Origin: Chiloscyllium plagiosum
Lineage: Eukaryota
DNA: 64,000 nucleotides
Assembly (NCBI RefSeq): GCF_004010195.1
Contig: NC_057717.1
Span: forward strand, 104,096,910-104,160,909
Direction: 5' to 3'
Position 1 is the stretch's first letter; every line of letters starts with the position of its first letter. This document shows positions 2,610 to 54,212 of this stretch, piece after piece. The notes beneath the pieces are model-generated. The model did not search any database. It saw nothing but the letters and a program-made list of their open reading frames with translations, and was not told where the DNA came from. A program made the position numbers and the translations under genes.

Positions 2610-3260
2610 CAGAAACAAAAATAGAAATTGCTGGAAAAGCTCAGCAGGCCTAGAAGCAGTGGTGCAGAGAAATCAGAGCTAACGTTTCAGATCCTCAGAA
2701 CTGATGGTAGCTGGGAAAATATCGGTTTATATGGGGGGATGGGGGGGTTAAACGATAGGTGGAAACAGAACCCAAAGAGAGGGAAGACCAGTTAGACAGA
2801 TAAAAGGAGTTGGTTAAGATTTGGTTGGAGGGTAAATAGTTGTTAATGGGGACTGTTAATGGCTAACAGTGGGTAGTGTGTAATGGCAGACTATGTGATA
2901 ACAAGAGAGAAAGTGAGGACTGCAGATGCTGGAGATCAGAGCTGAATTTGTCCTGGTTGGGTCCAAATTTTGTTGGTCTGAACGTAGTCCAGAGTCCGTG
3001 CGCGATCACCTTTTATCTTAGCCGGCTTGGCACACCTCCTCATTCCTGAAGAAGGGCTTATGCCCGGAACGTCGATTCTCCTGCTCCTTGGATGCTGCCT
3101 GACCTGCTGCGCTTTTCCAGCAACACATTTGCAGTACCTGATAACAAGGCCTGGTGTGTGGGATCAGGGGCTAGGAACATTGGGGAGTTCAAGCCCTCAA
3201 ATTATTAAACTCAATATTGAGTCCGGAGGATTGATGTGCAGCAGGTCTGCTTCTTAAGCA
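2610..3260 (-). mobile_element. PLE 3' remnant with a nested short PLE-derived insertion (2906-3138)
   Basis: Terminal-repeat-like start GAAATTGCTGGAAAAGCTCAGCAGG. The nested element is flanked by the 10-bp direct repeat TGATAACAAG (2896-2905, 3139-3148). Confidence 0.6.
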
Positions 3261-3451
3261 AGGAGGTAGTAGACATCCATGGATTTTGCCGCTTACAAGT
3301 TAAATTAACTGAAGTGTCTTATCCTTCATGGAATGAGAAACTGGGTGGTGGATACCGTGGTATTGAAAGATCTGACAGATGTTCACTTACAGTTGGCGGT
3401 CATTATATTCTCAGGACCCACCAGTGCCTGGCTTTGTGCGTCTAGTAGAGT

Positions 3452-3886
3452 TTAAAAATGTGTTGCTGGAAAAGCGCAGCAGGTCAGGCAGCATCCAAGG
3501 AGAAGGAGAATCGACGTTTCGGGCATGAGCCCTTCTTCAGGAATGAGGAGGGTGTGCCAAGCAGGCTAAGATAAAAGGTAGGGAGGAGGGACTTGGGGGA
3601 GGGGTGTTCGGAATGCGATAGGTGGAAGGAGGTTAAGGTGAGGGTGATAGGCNNNNNNNNNNNNNNNNNNNNNNNNNNNNNNNNNNNNNNNNNNNNNNNN
3701 NNNNNNNNNNNNNAGTTAAAGTGTTCAGCCACGGGGCTGCTTGGCACACCCTCCTCATTCCTGAAGAAGGGCTTATGCCCGAAACGTCGATTCTCCTGTT
3801 CCTTTGATGCTGCCTGACCTGCTGCGCTTTTCCAGCAACACATTTGTAAGCTCTGATCTCCAGCATCTGCAGTCCTCACTTTCTCC
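3452..3886. mobile_element. Palindromic PLE-derived element spanning an assembly gap
   Basis: Inverted terminal-repeat arms, each with CTGAAGAAGGGCT(T/C)ATGCCCGAAACGTC (3513-3540 minus; 3761-3788 plus). Confidence 0.8.
3653..3713. other. Assembly gap (61 N)
   Basis: Run of N. Confidence 1.
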
Positions 3887-4092
3887 TAGTTGCTTCTAAT
3901 AGAGTGTCATGCTTCACGCGGTCCAAGGTAAGGTGGAGTCTGAGGGGTTCAGACCTCAGGCTGTTTCCCTGGATACAGCCATGAGATAATGAGCACGTTT
4001 CTTCAAGGCACCCTGACTGTGAGACAGGGCCACACAGCAGTCACCCCCGCGGGCCTGGGGAGTGGGGGTGGTGGAGGCAGGGTGTGGTTTGA

Positions 4093-4479
<387 letters not shown>

Positions 4480-5058
4480 TAGTGCCTCCATCTCAAAACG
4501 TTACTTCACTGGAGTGTTTTCCAACTAAATTCAACACCAGGTCTTAACAGAGATGAAGGGACATGTGACCTGGAGCTTGGCCAGAGAGAGGATTTAAGGA
4601 GTATCTTAAAAAGAGGAGAGAGAGGGGTGTTAAGGAGAGATTTCTATGGTCGTCCACAAGATGGTGGCTGCTGCATTTGTTGACCTTCCGCGCTGCTGAA
4701 GCCACTGTTCTCCATGTGGTGTAGGAACACACAGTGCTGTGTGGGGGTGGGGGTGGGAGGGGGTGGGGTGGTGAGGGGGGGGGTCGGGGGGGGCGGGGGA
4801 GGAGGTGGTGAGGGGGTGAGGTGAGGGGGTATTTCAGGATTCTGACCCAGTGACACTGAAGGAACAACAGTACATTTCCACGAGAGAGGGTGGCATTCCC
4901 AATTCCATTTCTTGGAGATTTTTGATGTTATTTATTTATGGAGGTGGGGGCCTGAATTTATTGCCCGTCCCTAATTGCCCTTGAAGGTGGTGGGATGCTA
5001 GTGCAGCCCGATACTCAGCCAATAAAAGTCTCGTCTGTGGTGTGACAGTGAGATGTAG

Positions 5059-5505
<447 letters not shown>

Positions 5506-5599
5506 TAGCCAGCACTCAAGGGAGAACTCCCACCCATGTTAGGGCAGGCAGAGCCTCCATTTAACATCTCCAACAAAAGACAATAGGTCCAACAGCACA

Positions 5600-5763
5600 G
5601 CACTCCCTCCGACAGTGTGGCACTCCCTCAGCACTGACCCTCCGACAGTGTGGCACTCCCTCAGCACTGACCCTCCGACAGTGCGGCACTCCCTCAGCAC
5701 TGACCCTCTGACAGTGCGGCACTCCCTCAGCACTGACCCTCTGACAGTGCGGCACTCCCTCAG
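5600..5763 (+). repeat. 33-bp minisatellite (~5 copies) derived from a Deu-domain SINE
   Basis: Unit CAGCACTGACCCTCCGACAGTGCGGCACTCCCT, preceded by Deu-domain-like TTTAACATCTCCAACAAAAGAC. Confidence 0.85.
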
Positions 5764-6373
5764 GATCATACCAACTGTGCCTGCTCAGAGCTTCTGCTCC
5801 ATTCCTTGGAGAGAGTAGTGCTGGTGTTTGAGCACATGGCATTGTGATGTAACCGAGACTGCTATGTTCACTGAGCCATTGGTTTGTGCCTCTGGCCTTG
5901 ACCCATTCAGTCTGTGTCTAGTTTCAGAATGCTCATCATCACTGTCTGATGCAGTCAGTGTTGTACATCTGCATTCAAAACCAGAAAGCGTAGGAGAAAC
6001 GCAGCAGGTCTGGCTGCATCTGTGGAGCGAGAGAGAGAAAAACAGAATTAACTTTTCAGTTCCACTGACCCTTCCTCTGCAGAACTGGCCCCTATCCATT
6101 GAGGACTTTGGCGCTGGTGGCACTCGGAGTATCATCTCCGATTGCATGGTCCCGGTCTTGTGAATCCAAGCTCGATGGTGGGAAAGCCCATGAGTGGTGC
6201 AAAGTCCTTGACACGAAGATCAGTTCTCAGGAAGGGTCACTGGATCCGAAACATTACCTCTGTTTTTTTCTCTCTCTCTGCAAAGATGTTGCCAGACCTG
6301 CTGGGTTTCTCCAGCACTTTCTGCTTTGGTCTCTGACATTAATACTATTCTGAATCTAAGAATACGTGCTGAA

Positions 6374-7027
6374 TGAATCCCCCCCATATTGTGATAATTC
6401 CAGTACTTTTCCGGATGCACAGAAAAATACATTAAAAACATCTCCGGGTGGCTCTGTGTTCACTCCGTAAAAGAATAGTTCCCATAGACAATCAAAGTCC
6501 CTTCCAGTGAAAACAGCCAGGCCACGCTCAGACAACAACACACCAGGACTAAAGACCCTATACCCATCATGTGCAAGACTAAGGTAATTTACAAGATTCC
6601 ATGCAAAAGCTCCATGAGATACTATCTCGGACAAACAGGCAGACAACTAGTATTCCGCATCTACAAACACCAACTAGCCACTGAATGCCGTGAGCAGCTG
6701 TCCCTAGTGGCCACACACACAGATGACAAGGACCACAAACTGGACTGGGACAACACAATGATCAAAGACAGAGAGTAGCCGGAGAATTTCTAGAACCATG
6801 GCCATCATCCACGACGCTATCAACAAGCACATAGACCTAGACCCAATATACCAGCCACTACAATGAACAACCAGAAACTGCAGGACTGGAACCAAATAAA
6901 CTCCAGGTGACACAGTACAGTAGTGCCACACAGGAGCCTCCAAAGCATTGAGGATGTCACCTAGACAGGGGATAAAATGTCTGCAGATTAACTTCCCACC
7001 TCGGCGAACATACCCACAACTATGGCA
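6374..7027 (+). repeat. 654-bp segment (copy 1) containing a PLE GIY-YIG fragment
   Basis: Repeated at 7500-8153 (offset 1126). Encodes a decayed VIYKIPCK...YLGQTGR GIY-YIG motif. Confidence 0.9.
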
Positions 7028-7499
7028 ATCATCACCCGAGCAACAAACCTTCACGCAAACATTGGAAAATAAACAAAGTACTGGGGAAACTCAGCAGCTC
7101 TGGTCACATCTGCAGAGAGAGAAACAGAGTTATCATGTCATGTACAATAATATGATTCTTTGGATCTGAAGATGGCTGGAAATGATGGTGTTCATGTTGT
7201 TGACAAAGGTGCAGGAGGAACAAGTGGAACAGATGCTTAGTGCACCCTGAGCAAAATACAAAGGAAGAGAGTGCTAATGTGAATAGAGGAGAGACGTGGC
7301 TGCAAAACAGATGTTAATAATGAGTGAATAGTCAGAAATACATCAGCTTTACTGAGAGCAAATCCATGCAAACAAGACATGGGGTAGAAAAAGCTAGGGA
7401 CAGAAAACTAAGGACACCATTCATGATTTGACATTGTTGAACTTAAGTCCTGAAGACTGTAAAGTACTGAGGTGGAAAATGAATTGGTGTTCCTCCAGC

Positions 7500-8153
7500 T
7501 GAATCCCCCCCATATTGTGATAATTCCAGTACTTTTCCGGATGCACAGAAAAATACATTAAAAACATCTCCGGGTGGCTCTGTGTTCACTCCGTAAAAGA
7601 ATAGTTCCCATAGACAATCAAAGTCCCTTCCAGTGAAAACAGCCAGGCCACGCTCAGACAACAACACACCAGGACTAAAGACCCTATACCCATCATGTGC
7701 AAGACTAAGGTAATTTACAAGATTCCATGCAAAAGCTCCATGAGATACTATCTCGGACAAACAGGCAGACAACTAGTATTCCGCATCTACAAACACCAAC
7801 TAGCCACTGAATGCCGTGAGCAGCTGTCCCTAGTGGCCACACACACAGATGACAAGGACCACAAACTGGACTGGGACAACACAATGATCAAAGACAGAGA
7901 GTAGCCGGAGAATTTCTAGAACCATGGCCATCATCCACGACGCTATCAACAAGCACATAGACCTAGACCCAATATACCAGCCACTACAATGAACAACCAG
8001 AAACTGCAGGACTGCAACCAAATAAACTCCAGGTGACACAGTACAGTAGTGCCACACAGGAGCCTCCACAGTATTGAGGATGTCACCTAGACAGGGGATA
8101 AAATGTCTGCAGATTAACTTCCCACCTCGGCGAACATACCCACAACTATGGCA
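7500..8153 (+). repeat. 654-bp segment (copy 2)
   Basis: Near-identical to 6374-7027; three substitutions seen by eye, all in the 3' part. Confidence 0.9.
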
Positions 8154-8724
8154 GCCAGGCCTATTCACATGTATTGTTCTACCTTGTTTCAATTTCTCAT
8201 TGCCATGACAACGAACCCTTACTGGTCTGGTTTGAAGATATCATTTTAATGTACATGTAGATTGTCAAAGCACTGGCTGGACAATGCAATAACATGTTCA
8301 AGAGGGATTTTCAAAAGTTGATGGGATTGTTGTTTGCAGCTGTCCTGGAGAAATAATGTTGTAATATTATGGACATCACTATTATCTCTATTATACATGA
8401 GTCATTAGTAATAAACCATCACATGCAGGGATACATCCTCTGGAAACAAAAGGGACGTGTCCAAGCCTTGCACTTTGATTTATCCAGAAGCTTGGGGAAC
8501 CTTTGGTTCCTGATTGGTTGAGGTGTTGCCATGGAGAAAGCAGTCCAAATTAAGCCAACCAGTTAGCACCCTTGTTTCTCCTGTGGTTAAACTACTGCGC
8601 TGGTTTGAAATTTGGCATGTGTCCTGATGAGGGCAAGAGGAAAAGATCTAGCGACCCATCTAGTCTTTTCCAGCAATGTTCCTAATCTTTCCCAAATTCC
8701 CATCCATTTCCTTTCCTCTTTCAG

Positions 8725-8824
8725 GTTTCCGTCCAGCAATCCGAGTGGCGGCCAGGGGAGCGGTGACGGAGGGAGTGGAGGGAACTTGTATCGCGAAGAG
8801 GGGGATGACGATCTCTACAACTGA
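8725..8824 (+). CDS. vcp-like: VCP/p97-like, last coding exon (C-terminal tail with HbYX/PUB-binding end)
   Basis: Acceptor ctttcctctttcAG ending at 8724. The phase-2 junction completes Arg; translates (R)FPSSNPSGGQGSGDGGSGGNLYREEGDDDLYN*, compared with human [34 protein letters not shown]. Confidence 0.93.
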
Positions 8825-10154
8825 GCAGCGGGGTTCAGAGGTCAAAGACTTACAGGGTCATGGTCTGGGGAAGGCAGCCTTTGCACACTGCCAAGGGAAG
8901 ACCTGTTAGCTTTCACCCTCGCTGGAAAGTGACACGCTATTTGTGGATTCTGCATTCACTCCCGCTTTTTTTTTTGAACTCTGACCCCACGTTCTCAAGG
9001 CTCGGTTTTGGCAGGCATGACCCGGTACCCTGTACAGGTACACCGGGAGTAAACATGCCTGTCCTTCGCCGTGGTTACTGTGTGGGCATTGAGTGCATGC
9101 ATGTGTGGGTTTGTGTATATATAAAGGTACGTGTGTGAGTGCGAGTTCAGCCCTGTACATTATGACTGCTATCCATTCAGATGCGGGCAAGATAGCTCAG
9201 TTTTTCACAATGTGACTAAACCGAACCAAAGGCCTGGTCCCTGGAGACAGAAAAAGACCTTTTCTGCTTTATTAGGTATGAGTCAGAGAGTTATACAGCA
9301 CAGAAACAGACCCTTCGATCCAATGTGTCCATGCCGAACACAATTCCAAACCTTGTTTTACAGAGTTTGGTATTCTCGAAAGAATTTCAGTGGTCAACAT
9401 TGAGGGAAAAGCTGCGATCTGAGTTGTGTCTCTAATCCCAACATCTCATCCAGCTCGATTTCTGACCGTCTTAGAATTCATTTTGGTGGCCAGCCATGTA
9501 CTACAAACTGAAATATATTGTCTGAGACGAGGAACAGGGTGGGTGTCTGGGGGCCTGATAAAAAGGGTCTCACTCACCAACCTCGCAGACCTTCTGGGTA
9601 AAGATCAGGTATAATCTTTCTGACCTATATTTTGCTGTCTCCAATCCCAACTCCAAACCGTTCAGATTGAAAATCTTCATCCTTGTGTCCACATCCGTTC
9701 ATCCCCTTGAGAAGATCAATGTCTGTGACTTCCCTCTGCCCTACAATTGACCCTCTTGCATTGTGTCACCTTGACAGCCTCCACTGGGCCTGGGATGTGC
9801 TACTCAATAGGCCCCAGGCCTCAGTGTAAGTTAGGCCTGTCAACTGGGAGTGTGGCTAACGCTCCAACTCAGAGTGCCCCAGACTGTTTAGCAAGTTGGG
9901 CTTACAGTCCAGGCTGTAGCTGTGATGGGGACAGTGTAGGATCCACGCAACAAAAATAAGGGTTTAACTTGAACTTTCTCTGGACATGTTCTTATTTCAA
10001 AGAGATGTTGCGATGAGGACATTTGATTGGGTAAGGGAATACGTCGATGATGAACTGTGCCTTCCCGCTGGAGAACACACTGTGGAGGTGGTCATGTAAC
10101 CCCCATCTCCAGGCCTGGGTTTATGACCGTGATTCCAATCCACCTGGACAAATA

Positions 10155-10658: not shown

Positions 10659-10869
10659 GGTGCTGAACTTTAATTCCATTAAAGTCTTCCAGAAACACAC
10701 CAGTCCTTCATCCCTCTCTCCGTCTCTGTGAGAGAGTCGATGGCTGTGGGAGTACAGGGGAAGCTCAGACTCTGGTCGCTAGTCTAATTCAGGCAGTGGG
10801 TCCTGATCAGTACCAGGGAGAGTATTCCAATCAAATTCAACCAACATCATCATGGCCAAATCCAATTCA

Positions 10870-12083
10870 TTTCTCTCACCTCACACACCTCTCCTCCTCC
10901 ACCCCCGTCTTTCCCCAACCGACCGACTCCCACAGCTACCGAGATTACACCTCCTCCCACCCTGCCCCCTGTAAAAACGCCATCCCATATTCCCAATTCC
11001 TCTGCCTCCGCCGCATCTGCTCCCAGGAGGACCAGTTCCAATACTGAACAACCCAGATGGCCTCCTCCTTCAAAGACCGCAAATTCCCCTCCGAAGTGGT
11101 CAACGACACTCTCCACCACATCTCCTCCACTTCCTGCACCTCCGCCCTAAACCCCGCCCCTCCAATCGCCACCAGGACAGAACCCCACTGGTCCTCACCT
11201 TCCACCCACTAACCTCCGGATACATCGTATCATCCTCCGTCATTTCCACCACCTCCAAACAGACCCCACCACCAGGGATATATTTCCTTCCCCACCCCTA
11301 TCAGCGTTCCGGAGAGACTATTCCCTCCGCGACTCCCTTGTCAGGTCCACACCCCTCACCAACCCAACCTCCACTCCTGGCACCTTCTCCTGCAACCGCA
11401 AGAAGTGCAAAACTTGCGCCCACACCTCCCCCCTCACCTCCCTCCAAGGCCCCAAGGGATCCTTCCATATCCATCACAAATTCACCTGCACCTCCATTTA
11501 CTGTATCCGTTGCACCCGATGTGGTCTCCTCTACATTGGGGAGACAGGCCACCTACTTGCGGAACGTTTCAGGGAACACCTCTGGGACACCTGCACCAAC
11601 CAACCCAACCGTCCCGTGGGTGAACACTTTAACTCCCCCTCCCACTCCGCCAAGGACATACAGGTCCTTGGCCTCCTCCATCGCCAGACAATGACCACAC
11701 GACGCCTGGAGGAAGAGCGCCTCATCTTCCGCCTAGGAACCCTCCAACCACACGGGATGAATGTAGATTTCTCCAGCTTCCTCATTTCCCCTCCCCCCAC
11801 CTTATCTCAGTCCCAACTCCCGGATTCAGCACCGCTCTCTTGACCTGCAATCTTCTTCCCAATCTCTCTGCCCCTACCCCCTCTCCGGCCTATCACCCTC
11901 ACCTCCTTCCACCTATCGTATTCCCAGTGCCCCTCCCCCAAATCCCCTCCCCCCCTACCTTTTATCTTAGCCCGCGTGGCACACCAGCCTCATTCCTGAA
12001 GAAGGGCTTAAGCCCGAAACGTCAATTCTCCTGCTCCTCGGATGCTGCCTGGCCTGCTATATTTTTCCAGCATCACATTTTTT
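10870..12083 (+). mobile_element. Penelope-like retroelement, 5'-truncated (RT C-terminus, GIY-YIG endonuclease, terminal repeat with hammerhead core)
   Basis: PTDSHSYRDYTSSHPAPCKNAIPYSQFLCLRRICS and IYCIRCTRCGLLYIGETG...FREH motifs, interrupted by stops and frameshifts. CTGAAGA-GGGCTTAAGCCC-GAAACGTC at 11996-12023. Confidence 0.9.
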
Positions 12084-12679
12084 AACAAATATTTACAAGA
12101 AACTAGAAGTTGAAGTAACTTTAGAAAGTATCCTACATTAATTTTCTTTTAAAAGTTGTACAAAGTAAAAGCTGAAACAGACTATGAAAGAGAGAACATT
12201 TTTCAACCTTTAGAATCCATGTAAACTTCCCTATCAGTCCCTATATATTTTCAACAAATCCTTTGCAAATTTATTTTTCCCCAAACTTAAAATGAGTATC
12301 TCCTGTTTATTAATGCAATTTATCTTATAGGGGATAAATAAGCCACCCTCTTAAAACACAAATGATCATTAAATAAGGATAAGGGTTTGTCAAACGTAAA
12401 TATTTGACGAGAACCAGTAAACTTTCCTTTGCAAAGTCTAGAAACTGAAAACAAAAATAAAATATTTCAGAGGTGGCAGACTGGGAAATCTTAAAATGTG
12501 TAACAAAAAATGTTTGGATGACATTTAAAAGAAATAGGAAGTTATAATATTTTGAATTTCGTCAAAACTAACCCTTTTCGTGTTTTTTTTTAAAGGAAAC
12601 ATTATTAAGTTGAATTCCTGCAGAAGCAACATTTTTCCTAGTATAGTAATGATACTGAAAATCTTGTAAAGTTTGTTTT

Positions 12680-21936: not shown

Positions 21937-22630
21937 GTGAGTGTGCCTCTGGTCGCTGGGTATCCGATTGTATCCAGGCCGAGGGGAGTTCCCCCCCAAG
22001 TGGATACATTGGGCGGGCGGGTGGATGGATGAGCGAATGTATCCTTTTCTGTCCCGGAGCCAGGCGCCCGGATACATTGTTTCCCCCTCGCTGGGAGGTG
22101 CGGGCTTAGGCGCTGGGTTTGAGGGGGCACTGCTGTTGGGGAGGGATTTGTGCCAGTTATCTGGCGGAATACCTTACGTTGTGACAGCCCTGTGGGATGG
22201 AGACGACACTCTCTCCCCATCCTGGTCACTTTCCAAAAGAAGAACAGGCCCTCGAGTCTAAGGTACCTTCTATATAATCATGCAAAGGGTTAAAAAAACT
22301 AATTGTCTCTGTGTGTCTATCTCTCTACATATGTGTGTCTCTCTGTCTGTCTGTGTCTCTCTGTCTCCACCACCCCCCTGTAATAAATTGGGGTTAAGTT
22401 GGGTTTTTTTAATATATGGATGTAGCCCATTCTGGCAGTAAACCTGAATTAAGGGGTCTTTACAAACCCCACCCCCTCCACCAACAACAAAATTCCTTCT
22501 CCTGCTAAGGTGCAGAGCAACTTGACAATGACTGATCAGCTGTCAGATCTGGATCCCAAGCTAACATAGGGATCAGAGCCGGAAAGAGAAATTGCTGGAG
22601 GGACTCCAGTGGGTCTGGCAGCATCTGAGG

Positions 22631-22855
22631 AGAGCTGAAAATGTGTTGCTGGAAAAGCGCAGCAGGTCAGGCAGCATCCAGGGAACAGGAGAATCGACGT
22701 TTCGGGCATAAGCCCTTCTTCAGGAACCTTCCTGAAGAAGGGCTTATGCCCGAAACGTCGATTCTCCTGTTCCCTGGATGCTGCCTGACCTGTGCTTTTC
22801 CAGCAACACATTTTCAGCTCTGATCTCCAGCATCTGCAGACCTCACTTTCTCCTC
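22631..22855. mobile_element. Near-perfect palindromic PLE-derived element with two hammerhead cores
   Basis: Arms 22631-22726 and 22729-22821; 16-bp direct repeat CAGCATCTGAGGAGAG at 22619-22634 and 22856-22871. Confidence 0.88.
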
Positions 22856-23109
22856 CAGCATCTGAGGAGAGACAACAGACTTGGTGTTTGAGTCCTGCTG
22901 AAGTGAACTGAAATGGGTAATGACACCAGTTTGCTAGTGAACCTAGGTCAGCACTTGGTTGGATCTCCATGCATTGAGTTTCTTAGCTTCTGATTTTGTT
23001 TTTTTTTGAGGTAGGGGTGATGTTGAAAGGTCAAACTATTGTGGTTTTGCTTCTTTTCCCTCCTGTCTCTATTTGACCCAGTGTTCTCTGCAACCCCATT
23101 GATAAAGGA

Positions 23110-28747: not shown

Positions 28748-29228
28748 ATGGTACAGTGGCTCAGTGGCTTGCACTGCGGTCTCAAAGCGCCAGGCACCTG
28801 GATACAATTCCACCTTCAGGCAGCTGTCTGTGTGGAGATTACACATTCGCCCTGTTTCTGATGGGTGCTCCAGTTTCCTTCCACAATCCAAAGATGTGCA
28901 GGTTAAGGTGGATGGGCCATGCTAAATTGCCCTTAGTGTCCAGGGATGTGCAGGTTAGGTGGATTAGCCACGAGAAATGTAAGGTTACGGGGTCGGGTAG
29001 GGGGTAGGTCTGGGCAGGTAAAAACAACGACTGCAGATGCTGGAAACCAGATTCTGGATTAGTGGTGCTGGAAGAGCACAGCAGTTCAGGCAGCATTCAA
29101 GGAGCTTCGAAATCGACGTTTCGGGCAAAAGCCCTTCATCAGGAATAATGGTCTGGGCAGGATGTACGTAGGGTCAGTGTGGCCTCAGTGGACTGAATGG
29201 TGTGTTTCCACACAGTGGGGGATTCTGT
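28748..29228 (+). mobile_element. V-SINE with nested PLE terminal-repeat insertion (29019-29149)
   Basis: The insertion is flanked by the 12-bp direct repeat GGTCTGGGCAGG (29007-29018, 29150-29161) and carries minus-strand CTGATGAAGGGCTTTTGCCCGAAACGTC. Confidence 0.85.
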
Positions 29229-33330: not shown

Positions 33331-33954
33331 GCAGGGTAACAGAACAATCTTTCACATTAGGTAAGCTGTGTCCCCTTGTTCTCTCCCACAAGGAGAAACA
33401 TCCTTTCAAAATCCATGTGGAGTGACCTCAGGATTTTGTAGGTTTGAGACACCTTTTCTTGTCCTGACCCTTTGCTGATGCCTTAGTTCATCATGTAAGA
33501 GAATCTTTTGTTTCTGTTGTGCTGTACACGGCCACAAGGTGTTCCCTGCTACCTTGTTGTAATGCAGGAAACACAGCAGCCAGTTTATGCACATCAAACT
33601 CCCACAAACAGCAATGTGATAATGACCAGAAAATTGCTTATGCTGGCTGAGGAATAATTCTTGGGATCTTTCACATATGGCCTCGCAGGTAAAAGGGGCC
33701 TCCTGTACTGCATGAAATGCCAAATAAATTGAGCTGAGCTCTCCGGAGCAGGGCCTGAATGCAAGGCCTGAGCCACAGTGACATCTGCCGAAACCACTTG
33801 CTCTCTCACTGGTCAAGTGCAGTGGGTGACTGTTGGAACTATTTGACTGCACTGGTGGAGCAGGGAAATGGAGAGGGAATAGTGTTCCTGTGGTACTGAG
33901 ATGGCGTTGGAATGCTGACCTAATATATTACCTTTCCACTTCTGTAGGTAGAAG

Positions 33955-34165
33955 ATGGGGAAGGATTATTATAAAATCCTGGGCATTAATAAAGGAACAG
34001 CAGAGGAAGATATCAAGAAGGCATACAGGAAGCTAGCCCTTAAGTACCATCCTGACAAGAACAAATCTCCAGATGCAGAGGAGAAGTTCAAGGAGATTGC
34101 TGAGGCTTATGATGTCCTGAGTGATCCCAAGAAACGAGAAATCTACGATCAATATGGCGAGGAAG
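33955..34165 (+). CDS. dnajb1: DNAJB1 (Hsp40) coding exon 1, J-domain
   Basis: [14 protein letters not shown]...YHPDKNK...YGEE(G) with the HPD motif. Acceptor ttctgtAG ending at 33947 precedes the ATG; donor GTAAGG at 34166; 211 coding nt. Confidence 0.95.
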
Positions 34166-34984
34166 GTAAGGGATGTTTAATCTGACCTGGCACACTCCTG
34201 TTCAGGTGGTGTAGTCTGACTCATGTACTTTTTGGACTTTAGTTGTATCACAACAAACAAGTTTGAAAAGAAGTAATTGTGTTTCACATCACCTGATGTT
34301 CAGGAATCTGATTAAAGTGGCAAAGATAGCTCTTGGGAGCAGGAGAAGGCCATTGAGCCCCTTCAATATGCTCTGCCATTCAACCTTCTTATCTGCCTCC
34401 ATTCCATTTTCCTGCACAATCTCCATATCCCTTGATGTCTGGAAATCTATCCATGTTGAACATTTTCCAATTGTTGTCCTTCACTTGAAAATTAAGATTT
34501 GAATCTACAACTTTGTTGGTAGAGTTGTTCTCTCCATCAGAGTGGACAGCTTTTGGAATGGGTGGAACACAGGCTGTTCTGCTGTCATGTGTGTTTCTGC
34601 AATGAGAATTTGCTGTAACGCAATTGACAAACTGGGGACTAAAGTGCAAACTTTTAAAACATCTGCTAGCTGTCATGCAATTACATCGTCAGCACTTTAA
34701 GCACTATTTCTAAAGCACGATTTTTTCTATAATGCAGGGTTGCACCAGAATGCAGCCTCACATTAGGCTAAATTGTCCGTAGTGTTAGGTGAAGGGGTAA
34801 ATGTAGGGGAATGGGTCTGGGTGGGTTGCGCTTCGGTGGGGACTTGTTGGGCCGAAGGGCCTGTTTCCACACTGTAAGTAATCTAAACTGACTGTATTGT
34901 AGACGTAACAAGAGAAGTCATCCAGATACTACAACAAGGGAAGGTAGATGATTGCTTTGGGATATTGTGAGTGAGCCATTGAGG

Positions 34985-52534: not shown

Positions 52535-53089
52535 TTAGATATACTCTGGGCTAAAGGGATCAAAGTGTATGGGGAGAAAGCGGGACCAGGGTTTGAGTGG
52601 GCTGATACAAAAACAGAAATTGCTGGAGAAACTCAGCAGGTCTGGCAGCATCTGTGGGGTAGAAAACAGAATTTAGCTGAACTGAAGAAGAGTCACTGGA
52701 CTTGCAGTGTTAACTCTGCTTTCTGTCCACATGCTGCCAGACCTGCTGAGTTCTCCAGCATCCACAGTTCTTTGTTTTATTTATGTGAGGGGGCTGGGTT
52801 TGATGATCATATTGAATAATGGAGCAGGCTCCAAGGACCGAATGACCTAATCTGCTCCTGTTTATTGTTTCCCATTTCATCTCCTGTTCTAGTCCTCGAT
52901 TTTCTCTCGAGCTAACGAGCAAACAAAACAAAGTCTTAAATGTGCTTAATGGCTGAGCTTCCACAGCCTCTTGAGTAGCGAGTTTCAAAGCTTGATCCTC
53001 CAAGTGAGGAAATTCCTCCTCATCGCGTTCCTAAATGATCAACCCTTTATACTAGGGTGGTGCTGTATAGTCTGTGACTCTTGAGCTGG

Positions 53090-54212
53090 GAAAATTGGCT
53101 CAAAGTTTGTGAGAAGATTTGTAGCTCGGGTGCTCGTTGTTGTGGTTCTGTTCGCCGAGCTCGGAATTTGTGTTGCAGACGTTTCGTCCCCTGTCTAGGT
53201 GACATCCTCAGTGCTTGGGAGCCTCCTGTGAAGCGCTTTTGTGATCTTTCCTCCGGCATTTGTAGTGGTTTGAATCTGCCGCTTCCGGTTGTCAGTTCCA
53301 GCTGCCCGCTGCAGTGGTCGGTATATTTGGTCCAGGTCGATGTGTTTGTTGATAGAATCTGTGGATGAGTGCCATGCCTCTAGGAATTCCCTGGCTNNNN
53401 NNNNNNNNNNNNNNNNNNNNNNNNNNNNNNNNNNNNNNNNNNNNNNNNNNNNNNNNNNNNNNNNNNNNNNNNNNNNNNNNNNNNNNNNNNNNNNNNNNNN
53501 NNNNNNNNNNNNNNNNNNNNNNNNNNNNNNNNNNNNNNNNNNNNNNNNNNNNNNNNNNNNNNNNNNNNNNNNNNNNNNNNNNNNNNNNNNNNNNNNNNNN
53601 NNNNNNNNNNNNNNNNNNNNNNNNNNNNNNNNNNNNNNNNNNNNNNNNNNNNNNNNNNNNNNNNNNNNNNNNNNNNNNNNNNNNNNNNNNNNNNNNNNNN
53701 NNNNNNNNNNNNNNNNNNNNNNNNNNNNNNNNNNNNNNNNNNNNNNNNNNNNNNNNNNNNNNNNNNNNNNNNNNNNNNNNNNNNNNNNNNNNNNNNNNNN
53801 NNNNNNNNNNNNNNNNNNNNNNNNNNNNNNNNNNNNNNNNNNNNNNNNNNNNNNNNNNNNNNNNNNNNNNNNNNNNNNNNNNNNNNNNNNNNNNNNNNNN
53901 NNNNNNNNNNNNNNNNNNNNNNNNNNNNNNNNNNNNNNNNNNNNNNNNNNNNNNNNNNNNNNNNNNNNNNNNNNNNNNNNNNNNNNNNNNNNNNNNNNNN
54001 NNNNNNNNNNNNNNNNNNNNNGGTGTTCTTCTTCCTCTTTTTGCAGTTCTGGTGTACTGCAGTGTGTTGTGGCCCTTTTGAACAGTGTCTAGATGCAACT
54101 TCTTTTGTGTGTGTTGGAGTGGTTGCTTTCATCATTGGCTCATCCAGCATCATCCTGTGGGATAAGGGATTTATCCAGGGTTCTGTTTTCACCCTTGGTT
54201 CAAATAAAATGT
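53090..54212 (-). mobile_element. Penelope-like element (gap inside) with an intact-looking hammerhead core
   Basis: Minus frames show SNHSNTHKRSCI.TLFKRATTHCS (RT C-terminus) and REFLEAWHSSTDSINKHIDL (GIY-YIG end); hammerhead motif at 53175-53214. Confidence 0.85.
53397..54021. other. Assembly gap (625 N)
   Basis: Run of N. Confidence 1.

What the first reader, a model, noticed from the sequence alone, without database searches (positions are those of the whole stretch)
22619..22871. Palindromic mini-element with back-to-back minimal hammerhead ribozymes and a 16-bp flanking duplication
Seen: a ~190-bp near-perfect inverted repeat in which each strand carries CTGAAGA-A-GGGC(TTAT)GCCC-GAAACGTC (22696-22723 minus; 22732-22759 plus). 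This is the hammerhead core CUGANGA / stem II / GAAA...UH, with stem III reduced to the palindrome ACGU. Established: Penelope-like elements carry such minimal type I hammerheads, thought to cleave as dimers. Inference: these are non-autonomous, retrozyme/MITE-like derivatives mobilised by PLE machinery, here inside the predicted first intron of dnajb1. Caveats: stem I is weak (about 2 bp), and the full hairpin would mask the core unless folding is co-transcriptional.
Basis: partly seen in the sequence, partly recalled or inferred. Interest (0 to 1): 0.72.

Follow-up and report, generated by a model that had tools for sequence, protein, structure and literature searches.

The report
Inverted Penelope-element tail-end insertion pair
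The palindrome is one ordinary insertion left by a Penelope-like jumping gene, two shortened copies of its tail end joined head to head, each carrying that gene family's known minimal hammerhead ribozyme motif.

Summary
There is a ~190-bp inverted repeat (22631-22726 / 22729-22821), a hammerhead-like core on each strand, and a perfect 16-bp flanking duplication.

It is not a MITE-like element that spreads as a palindrome. It is the usual one-step insertion product of an endonuclease-bearing Penelope-like element (PLE):
- two 5'-truncated copies lie head to head;
- a 34-nt "tail" is present on one arm only;
- one target-site duplication flanks the pair.

The 28-nt ribozyme word occurs 140,868 times (2 mismatches or fewer) in this 3.56-Gb genome. 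Tight back-to-back pairs occur at 7,126 places, with many different junctions. In 26 examined pairs, 24 have one duplication of 7-17 nt around the whole pair and 24 have exactly one tail. The arms of a pair share private variants (23 of 58, against 3% across loci).

Longer copies, one in this window, run from RT/GIY-YIG coding sequence into the same motif. The motif meets the published minimal-hammerhead criteria, and its stems covary among four families in this genome.

In this locus the two cores lie on opposite strands, so one transcript cannot form a ribozyme dimer. It is predicted to fold into a ~95-bp hairpin instead.

The "dnajb1 first intron" placement is not supported. This is a known kind, of low interest.

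The parts
22619..22634 (.). Left copy of the 16-bp target-site duplication, CAGCATCTGAGGAGAG. Its last 4 nt (AGAG) overlap the end of the left arm as microhomology.
   Evidence: D3, 100%; longest flank match 16 nt, against 4 nt in displaced control windows
22631..22726 (-). Left arm: a minus-strand copy of the PLE 3' module. It runs from 3 nt upstream of the ribozyme core to the proximal end point (...CACATTTTCAGCTCT) and has no tail.
   Evidence: (matches a real long copy, L023, from position -3 to +92)
22696..22723 (-). Minimal hammerhead motif on the minus strand. The predicted cut is after GUC.
   Evidence: exact match; criteria read in PMC4209133
22727..22728 (.). Two filler bases (CC) at the head-to-head junction
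   Evidence: the exact 30-nt junction occurs at 9 places in the genome
22729..22821 (+). Right arm body: a plus-strand copy of the same module from position -3. It lacks 3 nt near 22784 compared with the left arm.
22732..22759 (+). Minimal hammerhead motif on the plus strand: CUGAAGA, extra A, stem II GGGC/GCCC with loop UUAU, then GAAA-CGUC. The predicted cut is after C22759.
   Evidence: the stem II hairpin is kept in the lowest-energy fold of the arm alone; covariation among families
22822..22855 (+). 34-nt 'tail' extension (GATCTCCAGCATCTGCAGACCTCACTTTCTCCTC), present on the right arm only
   Evidence: exactly one tail in 24 of 26 pairs; the tail concept comes from PMC8557442 and PMC11167929
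22856..22871 (.). Right copy of the 16-bp target-site duplication
   Evidence: D3
22571..22625 (-). Target DNA that looks like an older, diverged relative of the same 3' module in the opposite orientation (GATGCTGCC...TCCAGCAA...GCTCTGATC)
   Evidence: local alignment score 29; 200 shuffles gave mean 17.3, maximum 27; D2, I3, I4. Modest support.

Best explanation
The locus is a single, young, dead-on-arrival insertion made by an endonuclease-bearing Penelope-like retrotransposon (PLE) that is extremely abundant in this shark-like genome.

Mechanism (inferred). The element's RT-endonuclease cut both strands of the target with a 16-bp stagger. Reverse transcription was primed from both DNA ends on the element's 3' module, starting once at the proximal and once at the distal of its two internal start sites. 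This explains why the 34-nt tail is on one arm only. Both cDNAs ran to the same point 3 nt upstream of the ribozyme motif and were joined head to head with 2 filler bases. Gap repair then produced the 16-bp duplication.

The ribozyme motifs. The hammerhead-like core on each arm is the family's own pseudo-LTR minimal hammerhead, carried along passively. Here the two cores are on opposite strands. A transcript through the locus therefore holds one sense core and its perfect complement, and is predicted to fold into a ~95-bp hairpin rather than a ribozyme.

Shown here: the anatomy, the copy numbers, the single duplication per pair, the one-tail rule, the variants shared between arms, and the link to RT/GIY-YIG coding sequence.

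Inferred: priming on both strands and the two start sites (from the in-vitro work on the Anolis element PAc), and the inactivity of this copy.
For: Anatomy.

Family size:
- 70,554 + 70,314 matches of the 28-mer at 2 mismatches or fewer in 3,556,477,427 bases; reversed-pattern control 0.
- Back-to-back pairs with 14 nt or fewer between the CTGAAGAAGG words: 7,126 places, control 0.

Sampled loci:
- Of 30 loci sampled by exact 28-mer, 17 have an adjacent inverted arm.
- 26 pairs were examined: those 17, the finding itself, and the 8 loci with the same junction.
- 24 of 26 have one flanking duplication of 7-17 nt. Control windows 60 nt further out reach 7 nt in 3 of 26.
- 24 of 26 have the tail on exactly one arm.

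Arms share variants: 23 of 58 variant positions within a pair, against 43 of 1,421 (3.0%) for arms taken from different loci.

Junctions vary: by my count of the printed list, 34 types among the first 50 listed places. The finding's own junction occurs 9 times, each with unrelated flanks.

Link to a PLE:
- Window 11151-11843 encodes CCHH...GLLYIGETG...; Pfam GIY-YIG E 5.3e-4, 20.7 bits, just under the 22.6 cutoff.
- That ORF ends about 150 nt upstream of the same motif at 11996-12023.
- Its longer relatives P0004 and P0018 carry RVT_1 and GIY-YIG above Pfam cutoffs.
- Family fragments align collinearly with P0004: 53% identity, E 1e-34 in the RT part; 49%, E 2e-12; 45%, E 4e-43 in the endonuclease part.

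Literature read:
- An inverted 5'-truncated copy plus a 30-40-bp tail at one end are PLE hallmarks (PMC8557442, passages).
- The PAc protein cleaves and extends both strands, and starts RT at two internal sites that delimit the tail (PMC11167929, main text).

Fold: -190.6 and -194.5 kcal/mol for the two strands of the 225-nt palindrome.
Against: - No Rfham-type support: no Rfam hammerhead model matches, at gathering score in the whole window or at E up to 10 in 22550-22950. This is expected for a motif without helix III, but it means the ribozyme call rests on motif criteria and covariation only.
- The GIY-YIG match of the window's own ORF is below Pfam's cutoff. RVT_1 on the family's own fragments is only E 0.23. 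I found no uninterrupted full-length copy; the apparently long open frames in L043 and L044 were runs of N.
- Two of 26 pairs break the rules: L006 has both tails and no clear duplication, and L048 has no tail and its flanks are palindromic too.
- The sample is small and was chosen by exact motif or exact junction.
- Whether the second arm is copied from a second RNA or from the first cDNA cannot be told from sequence.
- Both-strand priming has been shown only in vitro, for a lizard element.
Confidence: 0.85

Rival explanations
1. A palindromic, MITE- or retrozyme-like non-autonomous element that is transcribed and re-inserted as a unit by PLE machinery.
For: It is short and non-coding, has terminal inverted symmetry and a flanking duplication. 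The same junction recurs 9 times. The commonest junction type makes up 10 of the first 50 listed pairs.
Against: - Junctions are heterogeneous: 34 types in the first 50 listed places.
- The 9 same-junction loci differ in which side carries the tail, in left-arm length and in duplication length, 8-17 nt.
- The recurrent junctions are the simple joins of two arms that both reach positions -2 to -5.
- The arms carry the same subfamily signature as long copies that reach coding sequence.
- This locus has no tandem direct repeats, which define retrozymes.
Confidence: 0.05
2. Two independent insertions of the short form, the second landing by chance or by preference head to head next to the first.
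For: The family is very dense, with 7 copies in this 64-kb window. The target here is itself an old relative, and PLEs are reported to insert into their own sequence (PMC11167929).
Against: - One duplication flanks the whole pair in 24 of 26 pairs, and none sits at the inner junction.
- Arms share private variants far more than arms from different loci, 40% against 3%.
- Exactly one tail in 24 of 26 pairs.
- 7,126 pairs lie within 14 nt.
Confidence: 0.03
3. An assembly artefact or a later inverted duplication unrelated to retrotransposition.
For: Palindromic copies break the assembly elsewhere: an N gap sits in the centre of the 3450-3890 pair. In L048 the palindrome extends into the flanks.
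Against: - The arms are unequal, with a 34-nt tail on one only.
- The pair is flanked by a direct, not inverted, 16-bp repeat.
- RNA reads of an independent run show an opposite-strand joint at the same place in the family: 9 reads beginning at 8 places.
Confidence: 0.03
4. Whatever its origin, the locus acts as a hairpin-RNA gene (a microRNA or endo-siRNA precursor), or as a ribozyme switch for the neighbouring DnaJ gene.
For: - The predicted hairpin is very stable, -190.6 kcal/mol.
- 19 microRNA-precursor models match at E 5e-10 or weaker.
- Family RNA is present on both strands in one RNA run.
Against: - All microRNA matches are far below gathering scores (best 57 bits against 100) and simply fit a long hairpin.
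- 93% of the RNA reads run on into unrelated flanks, as expected for passive read-through.
- There is no conservation evidence.
- The locus is one of at least 7,126 alike.
Confidence: 0.05

Closest known systems
Minimal hammerhead ribozymes (min-HHR) in the pseudo-LTRs of metazoan Penelope-like elements (Cervera & de la Pena 2014, PMC4209133)
   Same: - CUGANGA and GAAA boxes and a GUC cut site.
- No helix III, with palindromic positions 15.2-16.2 (A-CG-U).
- An extra nucleotide between A9 and G10.1, and a G10.1-C11.1 pair.
- Location downstream of the RT-endonuclease ORF.
- Thousands of solitary copies.
- That paper also noted dual motifs close together on opposite strands.
   Different: - Stem II here is 4 bp with a 4-nt loop, whereas the paper describes 6-8 bp for many PLE motifs. 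Families F3 and F4 of this genome do have 6 bp.
- Helix I is only 2 contiguous pairs plus one more.
- Copy number (140,868 + 53,634 motif matches) is far above the roughly 4,000-9,000 quoted there for coelacanth and Xenopus.
- Cleavage was not tested.
Canonical endonuclease-bearing PLE insertion units: an inverted 5'-truncated copy next to a direct copy, with a 30-40-bp tail at one end (Craig et al. 2021, PMC8557442; PAc biochemistry, Frangieh et al. 2024, PMC11167929)
   Same: - Head-to-head arms, a one-sided 34-nt tail and a variable-length target duplication.
- An AC-rich sequence (CCAGCAACACA) just before the proximal end point.
- The ribozyme lies 62 and 96 nt upstream of the two end points, close to the PAc geometry (cut site at +26, RT start at +111-118).
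   Different: - Both arms are extremely short (about 95 and 127 nt) and stop at the same point just 5' of the ribozyme.
- No ORF or pseudo-LTR tandem is present at this locus.
- In this family the ORF ends upstream of the ribozyme, rather than starting in it as in PAc.
Non-LTR retrozymes of animals (Cervera & de la Pena 2020, PMC7229834, search listing only; Li, Clavereau & Pollet 2026 preprint, abstract and passages)
   Same: Short non-coding sequences that carry type I hammerheads, related to PLE pseudo-LTRs and dependent on PLE enzymes.
   Different: Retrozymes are direct tandem repeats whose RNAs self-cleave and circularise. This locus is an inverted pair with the motifs on opposite strands.
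Miniature inverted-repeat transposable elements (MITEs)
   Same: Small, non-coding, with inverted symmetry and a flanking duplication.
   Different: MITEs are cut-and-paste DNA elements with a fixed internal sequence and a fixed duplication length. Here the junction, the arm lengths and the duplication length (7-17 nt) vary, and the arms are retrotranscribed 3' ends.
Twin-priming inversions of LINE-1 (recalled from memory, not read here)
   Same: Both cut DNA ends are thought to prime reverse transcription, which gives an inverted 5' part inside one duplication.
   Different: In LINE-1 the inverted and direct parts are different, adjacent segments of one RNA. Here both arms copy the same segment.

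Membership tests
Hammerhead ribozyme, minimal PLE type (min-HHR) | Conserved core boxes CUGANGA and GAAA, and an NUH cleavage triplet | tested here: met
   CTGAAGA ... GAAA-C-GTC on both strands
Hammerhead ribozyme, minimal PLE type (min-HHR) | [quoted passage not shown] | tested here: met
   A + GGGC/GCCC. The first pair is G-C in 9 and G-U in 4 of 13 aligned sequences. The criteria are from PMC4209133.
Hammerhead ribozyme, minimal PLE type (min-HHR) | No helix III; positions 15.2-16.2 are palindromic, so that two copies can build helix III between them | tested here: met
   GAAA-CG-UC gives ACGU. At this locus, however, the second copy is on the other strand and cannot serve as partner on one RNA.
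Hammerhead ribozyme, minimal PLE type (min-HHR) | Helix I of about 4-5 bp | tested here: inconclusive
   - In long copies: G-C, A-U, U.U, U-A.
- In this copy: only G-C and A-U.
- The two inner pairs are standard pairs in 13 of 13 sequences of four families, with two pair types each.
Hammerhead ribozyme, minimal PLE type (min-HHR) | Compensatory changes in the stems among related copies | tested here: met
   - 82% of cells paired, against 22-39% when partners are slid.
- 4 of 10 pairs have changes on both sides.
- 0 of 500 shuffles reach the covariation score.
- Caveat: only four or five lineages, picked by their core boxes.
Hammerhead ribozyme, minimal PLE type (min-HHR) | Match to a curated hammerhead covariance model (Rfam) | tested here: not met
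   No hammerhead family at gathering score or at E up to 10. Rfam models include helix III.
Hammerhead ribozyme, minimal PLE type (min-HHR) | Self-cleavage after the H17 nucleotide | not testable with these tools
   The RNA reads showed no pile-up of ends, but the library type (poly(A) single-cell) cannot show it.
Penelope-like element (endonuclease-bearing) | A single ORF with reverse transcriptase followed by a GIY-YIG endonuclease | tested here: met
   - The window ORF 11151-11843 matches GIY-YIG at E 5.3e-4, below cutoff.
- Relatives P0004 and P0018 carry RVT_1 and GIY-YIG above cutoffs.
- Family fragments are collinear with P0004.
- No intact full-length copy was seen.
Penelope-like element (endonuclease-bearing) | An inverted 5'-truncated copy adjoining a direct copy, inside one target duplication | tested here: met
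   This locus. 17 of 30 sampled loci have it, and 24 of 26 pairs have a single duplication.
Penelope-like element (endonuclease-bearing) | [quoted passage not shown] | tested here: met
   34 nt on the right arm only. Exactly one tail in 24 of 26 pairs.
Penelope-like element (endonuclease-bearing) | Partial tandem copies forming pseudo-LTRs | not tested
MITE | One fixed internal sequence amplified as a unit, with a duplication of fixed length | tested here: not met
   34 junction types in the first 50 listed places; duplications of 7-17 nt.
Non-LTR retrozyme | Head-to-tail tandem repeats, each with a sense hammerhead | tested here: not met
   The locus holds an inverted pair, not a direct one. 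Genome-wide tandem arrays of this family were not searched.
microRNA precursor families (Rfam) | Score at or above the family's gathering threshold | tested here: not met
   The best is mir-3199 at 57.1 bits against 100. All 19 microRNA rows are below threshold.

The most novel reading that the evidence does not exclude
The dominant product of this family may be a discrete ribozyme-headed unit of about 95 or 130 nt, not a randomly truncated copy.

Evidence for a defined 5' end:
- 20 of 30 sampled copies start 1-7 nt upstream of the hammerhead core.
- Read and contig depth steps up 10- to 28-fold exactly there.
- Both arms of most tight pairs end there.

This points to an RNA with a defined 5' end. 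One candidate is a pseudo-LTR transcription start at the A of TCATTCC, about 30 nt downstream of a TTATCT word that families F1 and F2 share. Reverse transcription started at the upstream pseudo-LTR's own start sites would then run off after about 100 nt.

Together with the near-strict 'one proximal, one distal start per integration' rule (24 of 26 pairs), this would make the shark family a natural read-out of how the PLE enzyme uses its two start sites on the two DNA strands. It would also leave at least 7,126 perfect hairpin loci as possible sources of small RNAs against the family.
Probability: 0.3. Interest if true: 0.55.

Novelty: new member of a known kind. Interest (0 to 1): 0.27.

Why it matters
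For annotation, the locus should be masked as a PLE fragment. It should not be called a ribozyme gene, a microRNA or a new transposon class.

For PLE biology, this genome gives very large numbers of simple, young insertions in which the three odd PLE signatures can be counted: the inverted partner, the one-sided tail and the variable duplication. The strict one-tail-per-pair pattern and the sharp 5' boundary at the ribozyme are quantitative constraints on the still unresolved integration mechanism.

For genome function, thousands of perfect 95-bp hairpins within and near genes could feed double-stranded-RNA pathways. This is untested.

Tried and rejected
- Rfam found no hammerhead hit, either at gathering score on the whole window or at E up to 10 on 22550-22950. 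The microRNA-precursor hits were rejected as generic hairpin matches below threshold.
A shorter pattern within the limit was used instead.
- A search for an intact full-length element failed. The longest 'open frames' reported (764 and 603 aa) proved to be runs of N. Pfam on the family's own RT fragments gave nothing at E 0.01 and RVT_1 only at E 0.23. The Atlas search gave DUF8422/RVT_1-bearing clusters at 0.89-0.94, which is a lead only. The PDB sequence search of the endonuclease ORF gave nothing meaningful.
- RNA runs: no RNA holder was listed. Raw reads of one single-cell poly(A) run (X19: 1,608 reads laid, both directions, 93% running on into unlike sequence) showed no places where molecules begin or end. 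The second run (X20) laid 0 reads. X1 and X5 are contigs of uncertain kind. This says nothing on cleavage or on a transcription start.
- A strand-biased A>G at L023 positions 1580 and 1595 in X19 looked like RNA editing. It is matched in number by one highly expressed copy (160 reads share one downstream flank with a poly(A) signal), so I reject editing.
- The ATG in loop II opens only a 28-codon frame that stops in the tail (read). The PAc-like arrangement 'ORF starts in the ribozyme' does not hold for this family.
- Earlier-notes look-ups by place and by sequence gave nothing.
- Dfam and Repbase could not be consulted, so I cannot say whether this family already has a name there.
- Supplements of PMC4209133 and PMC8557442 (alignments of min-HHRs, element libraries) were not opened and may hold shark or close relatives' sequences.
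Full report
**1. The observation**

- The repeat finder gives a 64-nt arm pair at 22663-22726 / 22729-22792 with 100% complementarity.
- An outer pair at 22631-22662 / 22790-22821 is 97% complementary.
- A perfect 16-nt direct repeat, CAGCATCTGAGGAGAG, lies at 22619-22634 and 22856-22871.
- The 28-nt word CTGAAGAAGGGCTTATGCCCGAAACGTC is present exactly at 22696-22723 on the minus strand and at 22732-22759 on the plus strand.
- With up to 3 mismatches the window holds 7 matches, against none in 100 shuffles.

Three details were missed or are wrong.
- The right arm runs 34 nt further (22822-22855) than the left.
- The two arms are separated by two bases (CC), and each stops 3 nt upstream of CTGAAGA.
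- The gene placement is not as stated. The only J-domain exon of the window ([10 protein letters not shown]...YHPDKN..., 33952-34182, plus strand; Pfam DnaJ E 2.5e-30) lies 11.1 kb downstream. The finding is therefore upstream of the start-codon exon, and not demonstrably in an intron.

**2. It is one copy of a very large family**

The window lies in a 3.56-Gb assembly.
- The 28-mer occurs 70,554 + 70,314 times at 2 mismatches or fewer. The reversed control pattern occurs 0 times.
- The same core with another base at position 7 adds 26,829 + 26,805 matches, against 286 for the control. These reveal further families: F2 (CTGATGA-A-GGGC-TTTT-GCCC), F3 (stem GTTACC/GGTAAT) and F4 (GTCACC/GGGGAC). 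F2 is present in the window at 29115 and F4 at 53178.

I aligned thirty 3-kb loci around exact matches, plus the window's copies, to a real long copy, L023.
- The module ends either at ...CCAGCAACACATTTTCAGC(TCT) or about 35 nt further, at ...GATCTCCAGCATCTGCAGACCTCACTTTCTCCT(C).
- Its 5' start lies 1-7 nt upstream of CTGAAGA in 20 of 30 loci.
- In the other 10 it is scattered from -43 to at least -300.

**3. The family is a Penelope-like element**

Long copies continue upstream into coding sequence.
- In the window, the ORF 11151-11843 (...CKTCAHT...CTRCGLLYIGETGHLLAERFREH...RLEEERLIFRLGTLQPHGMN...) ends about 150 nt before the motif at 11996-12023.
- It matches Pfam GIY-YIG at E 5.3e-4, which at 20.7 bits is just below the 22.6 cutoff.
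- The own-genome search with this ORF gave 172,847 first-look candidates.
- Its longer relatives in the protein collection include P0004 (902 aa) and P0018 (797 aa). In my own scan both carry RVT_1 (42.4 and 41.8 bits; cutoff 29.6) followed by GIY-YIG (32.4 and 25.9 bits; cutoff 22.6).
- Fragments of the family are collinear with P0004: L037:548-901 matches residues 378-475 (53% identity, E 1e-34), window 10667-11047 matches residues 606-652 (49%, E 2e-12), and the endonuclease ORF matches at 45% identity (E 4e-43).
- In L037 the RT-like frame, the endonuclease frame and the motif lie on one strand within 1.8 kb.
- The nearest named relatives of the ORF are uncharacterised proteins of carpet sharks, at 62-70% identity.
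- I did not find an uninterrupted full-length copy. The long open frames suggested were assembly gaps.

**4. The palindrome is made in one integration event**

Of the 30 sampled loci, 17 have an inverted arm directly next to the direct arm. I examined 26 pairs in all: these 17, the finding itself, and the 8 other loci that share its junction.
- 24 have one direct repeat of 7-17 nt flanking the whole pair. Displaced control windows reach 7 nt in 3 of 26.
- 24 carry the distal extension on exactly one arm, on either side.
- The two exceptions, L006 and L048, are also the two without a clear duplication.

Arms of one pair share 23 of 58 variant positions relative to a real reference copy. Arms taken from different loci share 43 of 1,421, or 3.0%.

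Genome-wide, pairs with at most 14 nt between the two CTGAAGAAGG words occur at 7,126 places, against 0 for the control.
- Among the first 50 listed places I count 34 different junctions.
- The commonest, GAATC/GATTC, accounts for 10.
- The finding's own junction (GAACCTTC) is not among these 50.
- Searched exactly, that junction occurs at 9 places. The 8 others have unrelated flanks and their own duplications. In most of them the tail is on the left.

This rules out three readings:
- a palindromic master element,
- two chance insertions,
- for this locus, an assembly artefact.

**5. Fit to published PLE behaviour**

Craig et al. (PMC8557442, passages read) list the hallmarks of PLE insertions:
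- heavy 5' truncation;
- an inverted 5'-truncated copy adjoining the unit;
- a 30-40-bp tail often present at one end only.

Frangieh et al. (PMC11167929, main text read) report for the lizard element PAc:
- The purified protein cleaves and extends both target strands.
- Ribozyme cleavage is not needed for insertion and needs the protein.

The present family matches this geometry.
- The predicted cut is after C22759.
- The end points lie 62 and 96 nt downstream.
- An AC-rich CCAGCAACACA sits just before the proximal one.
- The 4-nt overlap AGAG/CTCT between the left arm's end and the duplication is consistent with microhomology at priming. This is my inference.

**6. The ribozyme motif**

It meets the sequence criteria that Cervera and de la Pena set out for PLE minimal hammerheads (PMC4209133, main text read):
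- both core boxes;
- a GUC site;
- a G10.1-C11.1 pair;
- no helix III, with palindromic 15.2-16.2;
- location near the end of PLEs.

That paper also notes dual motifs on opposite strands 100-700 bp apart, and low in-vitro activity even as dimers.

I aligned 13 sequences of families F1-F4.
- The hammerhead pairing gives 82% paired cells, against 22-39% with partners slid by 1-3 columns.
- 4 of 10 pairs change on both sides.
- The two inner helix I pairs are standard pairs in 13 of 13 sequences, with two pair types each.
- Only four or five lineages are involved, and they were picked by their core boxes, so this is supportive rather than strong.

No Rfam hammerhead model matches.

In the finding itself helix I keeps only G-C and A-U. 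More important, the second core is on the other strand. One transcript therefore holds a sense core next to its perfect complement. The predicted folds are single hairpins of -190.6 and -194.5 kcal/mol for the two strands. An arm alone folds at -25.7 kcal/mol and keeps the stem II hairpin. The dimer idea therefore cannot apply to this arrangement.

**7. RNA data**

- No run on record as RNA held the sequence.
- Raw reads of one poly(A) single-cell run laid on a long copy (1,608 reads) cover both directions. 93% of them run on into unlike sequence, and there are no sites where molecules begin or end.
- This fits passive read-through of dispersed copies, but the library cannot reveal cleavage or start sites.
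- The depth profile is useful as a copy census. Depth rises 10- to 28-fold exactly at the 5' border of the core (for example X1: 15,854 to 255,789) and falls at the tail end.

**8. What remains open**

- The sharp 5' boundary suggests a template RNA with a defined 5' end. I propose, with low confidence, a pseudo-LTR start at TCA(+1)TTCC, about 30 nt downstream of a TTATCT word shared by F1 and F2. Reverse transcription begun at the upstream pseudo-LTR's own start sites would then run off after about 100 nt.
- The one-tail rule implies that the proximal and distal start sites are used once each per integration. The in-vitro study did not report this.
- The target of this insertion looks like an older relative in the opposite orientation (score 29 against a shuffle maximum of 27). 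This is compatible with, but does not prove, self-targeting.

**9. Verdict**

- The ribozyme and PLE attribution is right.
- The 'palindromic mini-element with cooperating back-to-back ribozymes inside a dnajb1 intron' reading is not supported.
- The locus is a young insertion of a known kind: 0 and 1 differences from a real reference copy in its two arms.
- It is very probably inert.
- Two earlier notes on other pieces of the same genome reached the same reading. They are not independent evidence.

Noticed in passing
window 2897-3138, with repeats TGATAACAAG at 2887-2896 and 3139-3148: Another insertion of the same family. Its left part is only the tail in inverted orientation (about 45 nt). 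It is followed by a direct copy that ends at the proximal site without a tail. L010 has the same layout.
   Followed up: partly
window 3450-3890: A longer head-to-head pair of the same family, with arms reaching at least 110 nt upstream of the motif. The assembly has a 61-N gap (3653-3713) at its centre. The right arm carries the tail and the left does not.
   Followed up: partly
window ~10850-12085 (+): A 5'-truncated longer copy of a related, older subfamily. It runs from the RT C-terminal region and the CCHH/GIY-YIG endonuclease ORF (11151-11843), through about 150 nt, to the minimal hammerhead at 11996-12023, and ends at the proximal site.
   Followed up: yes
window 29033-29155 (-): A copy of family F2 (CTGATGA-A-GGGC-TTTT-GCCC) with its own tail and a 12-nt duplication, CCTGCCCAGACC. 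Its 5' start also lies just upstream of the core.
   Followed up: partly
window 53047-53396 (-), next to the N gap 53397-54021: A fragment of a different PLE family (F4). The ORF's stop codon lies inside loop II of its hammerhead (CTGAGGA-T-GTCACC-TAGACA-GGGGAC-GAAACGTC). F3 and F4 copies elsewhere also show two alternative 3' ends about 40 nt apart.
   Followed up: partly
window 22571-22625 (-): The DNA into which the finding inserted resembles an old, diverged copy of the same 3' module in the opposite orientation. This may be self-targeting or simply repeat density.
   Followed up: partly
L023:1580 and 1595 (family reference copy), run X19: A strand-biased A>G in RNA reads (63 of 430 and 165 of 596 in one direction, 11 of 233 and 2 of 220 in the other, and about 1% or less in contig runs). 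It is most simply due to one highly expressed copy whose 160 reads share a downstream flank with AATAAA, not to editing.
   Followed up: partly
window 33952-34182 (+): The J-domain exon of a class-B DnaJ gene, beginning [14 protein letters not shown]. From memory it resembles DNAJB4/B5 at least as much as DNAJB1. The paralogue was not determined.
   Followed up: partly
L026:1390-1500: A short-form unit starting exactly at CTGAAGA, inserted inside the GIY-YIG coding sequence of another PLE copy (...CSRCGLLYIGETGRLLAERFREHLRD...).
   Followed up: no
window 22310-22371: A TG/TC-rich low-complexity tract (three imperfect 22-nt repeats) about 250 nt upstream of the insertion.
   Followed up: no
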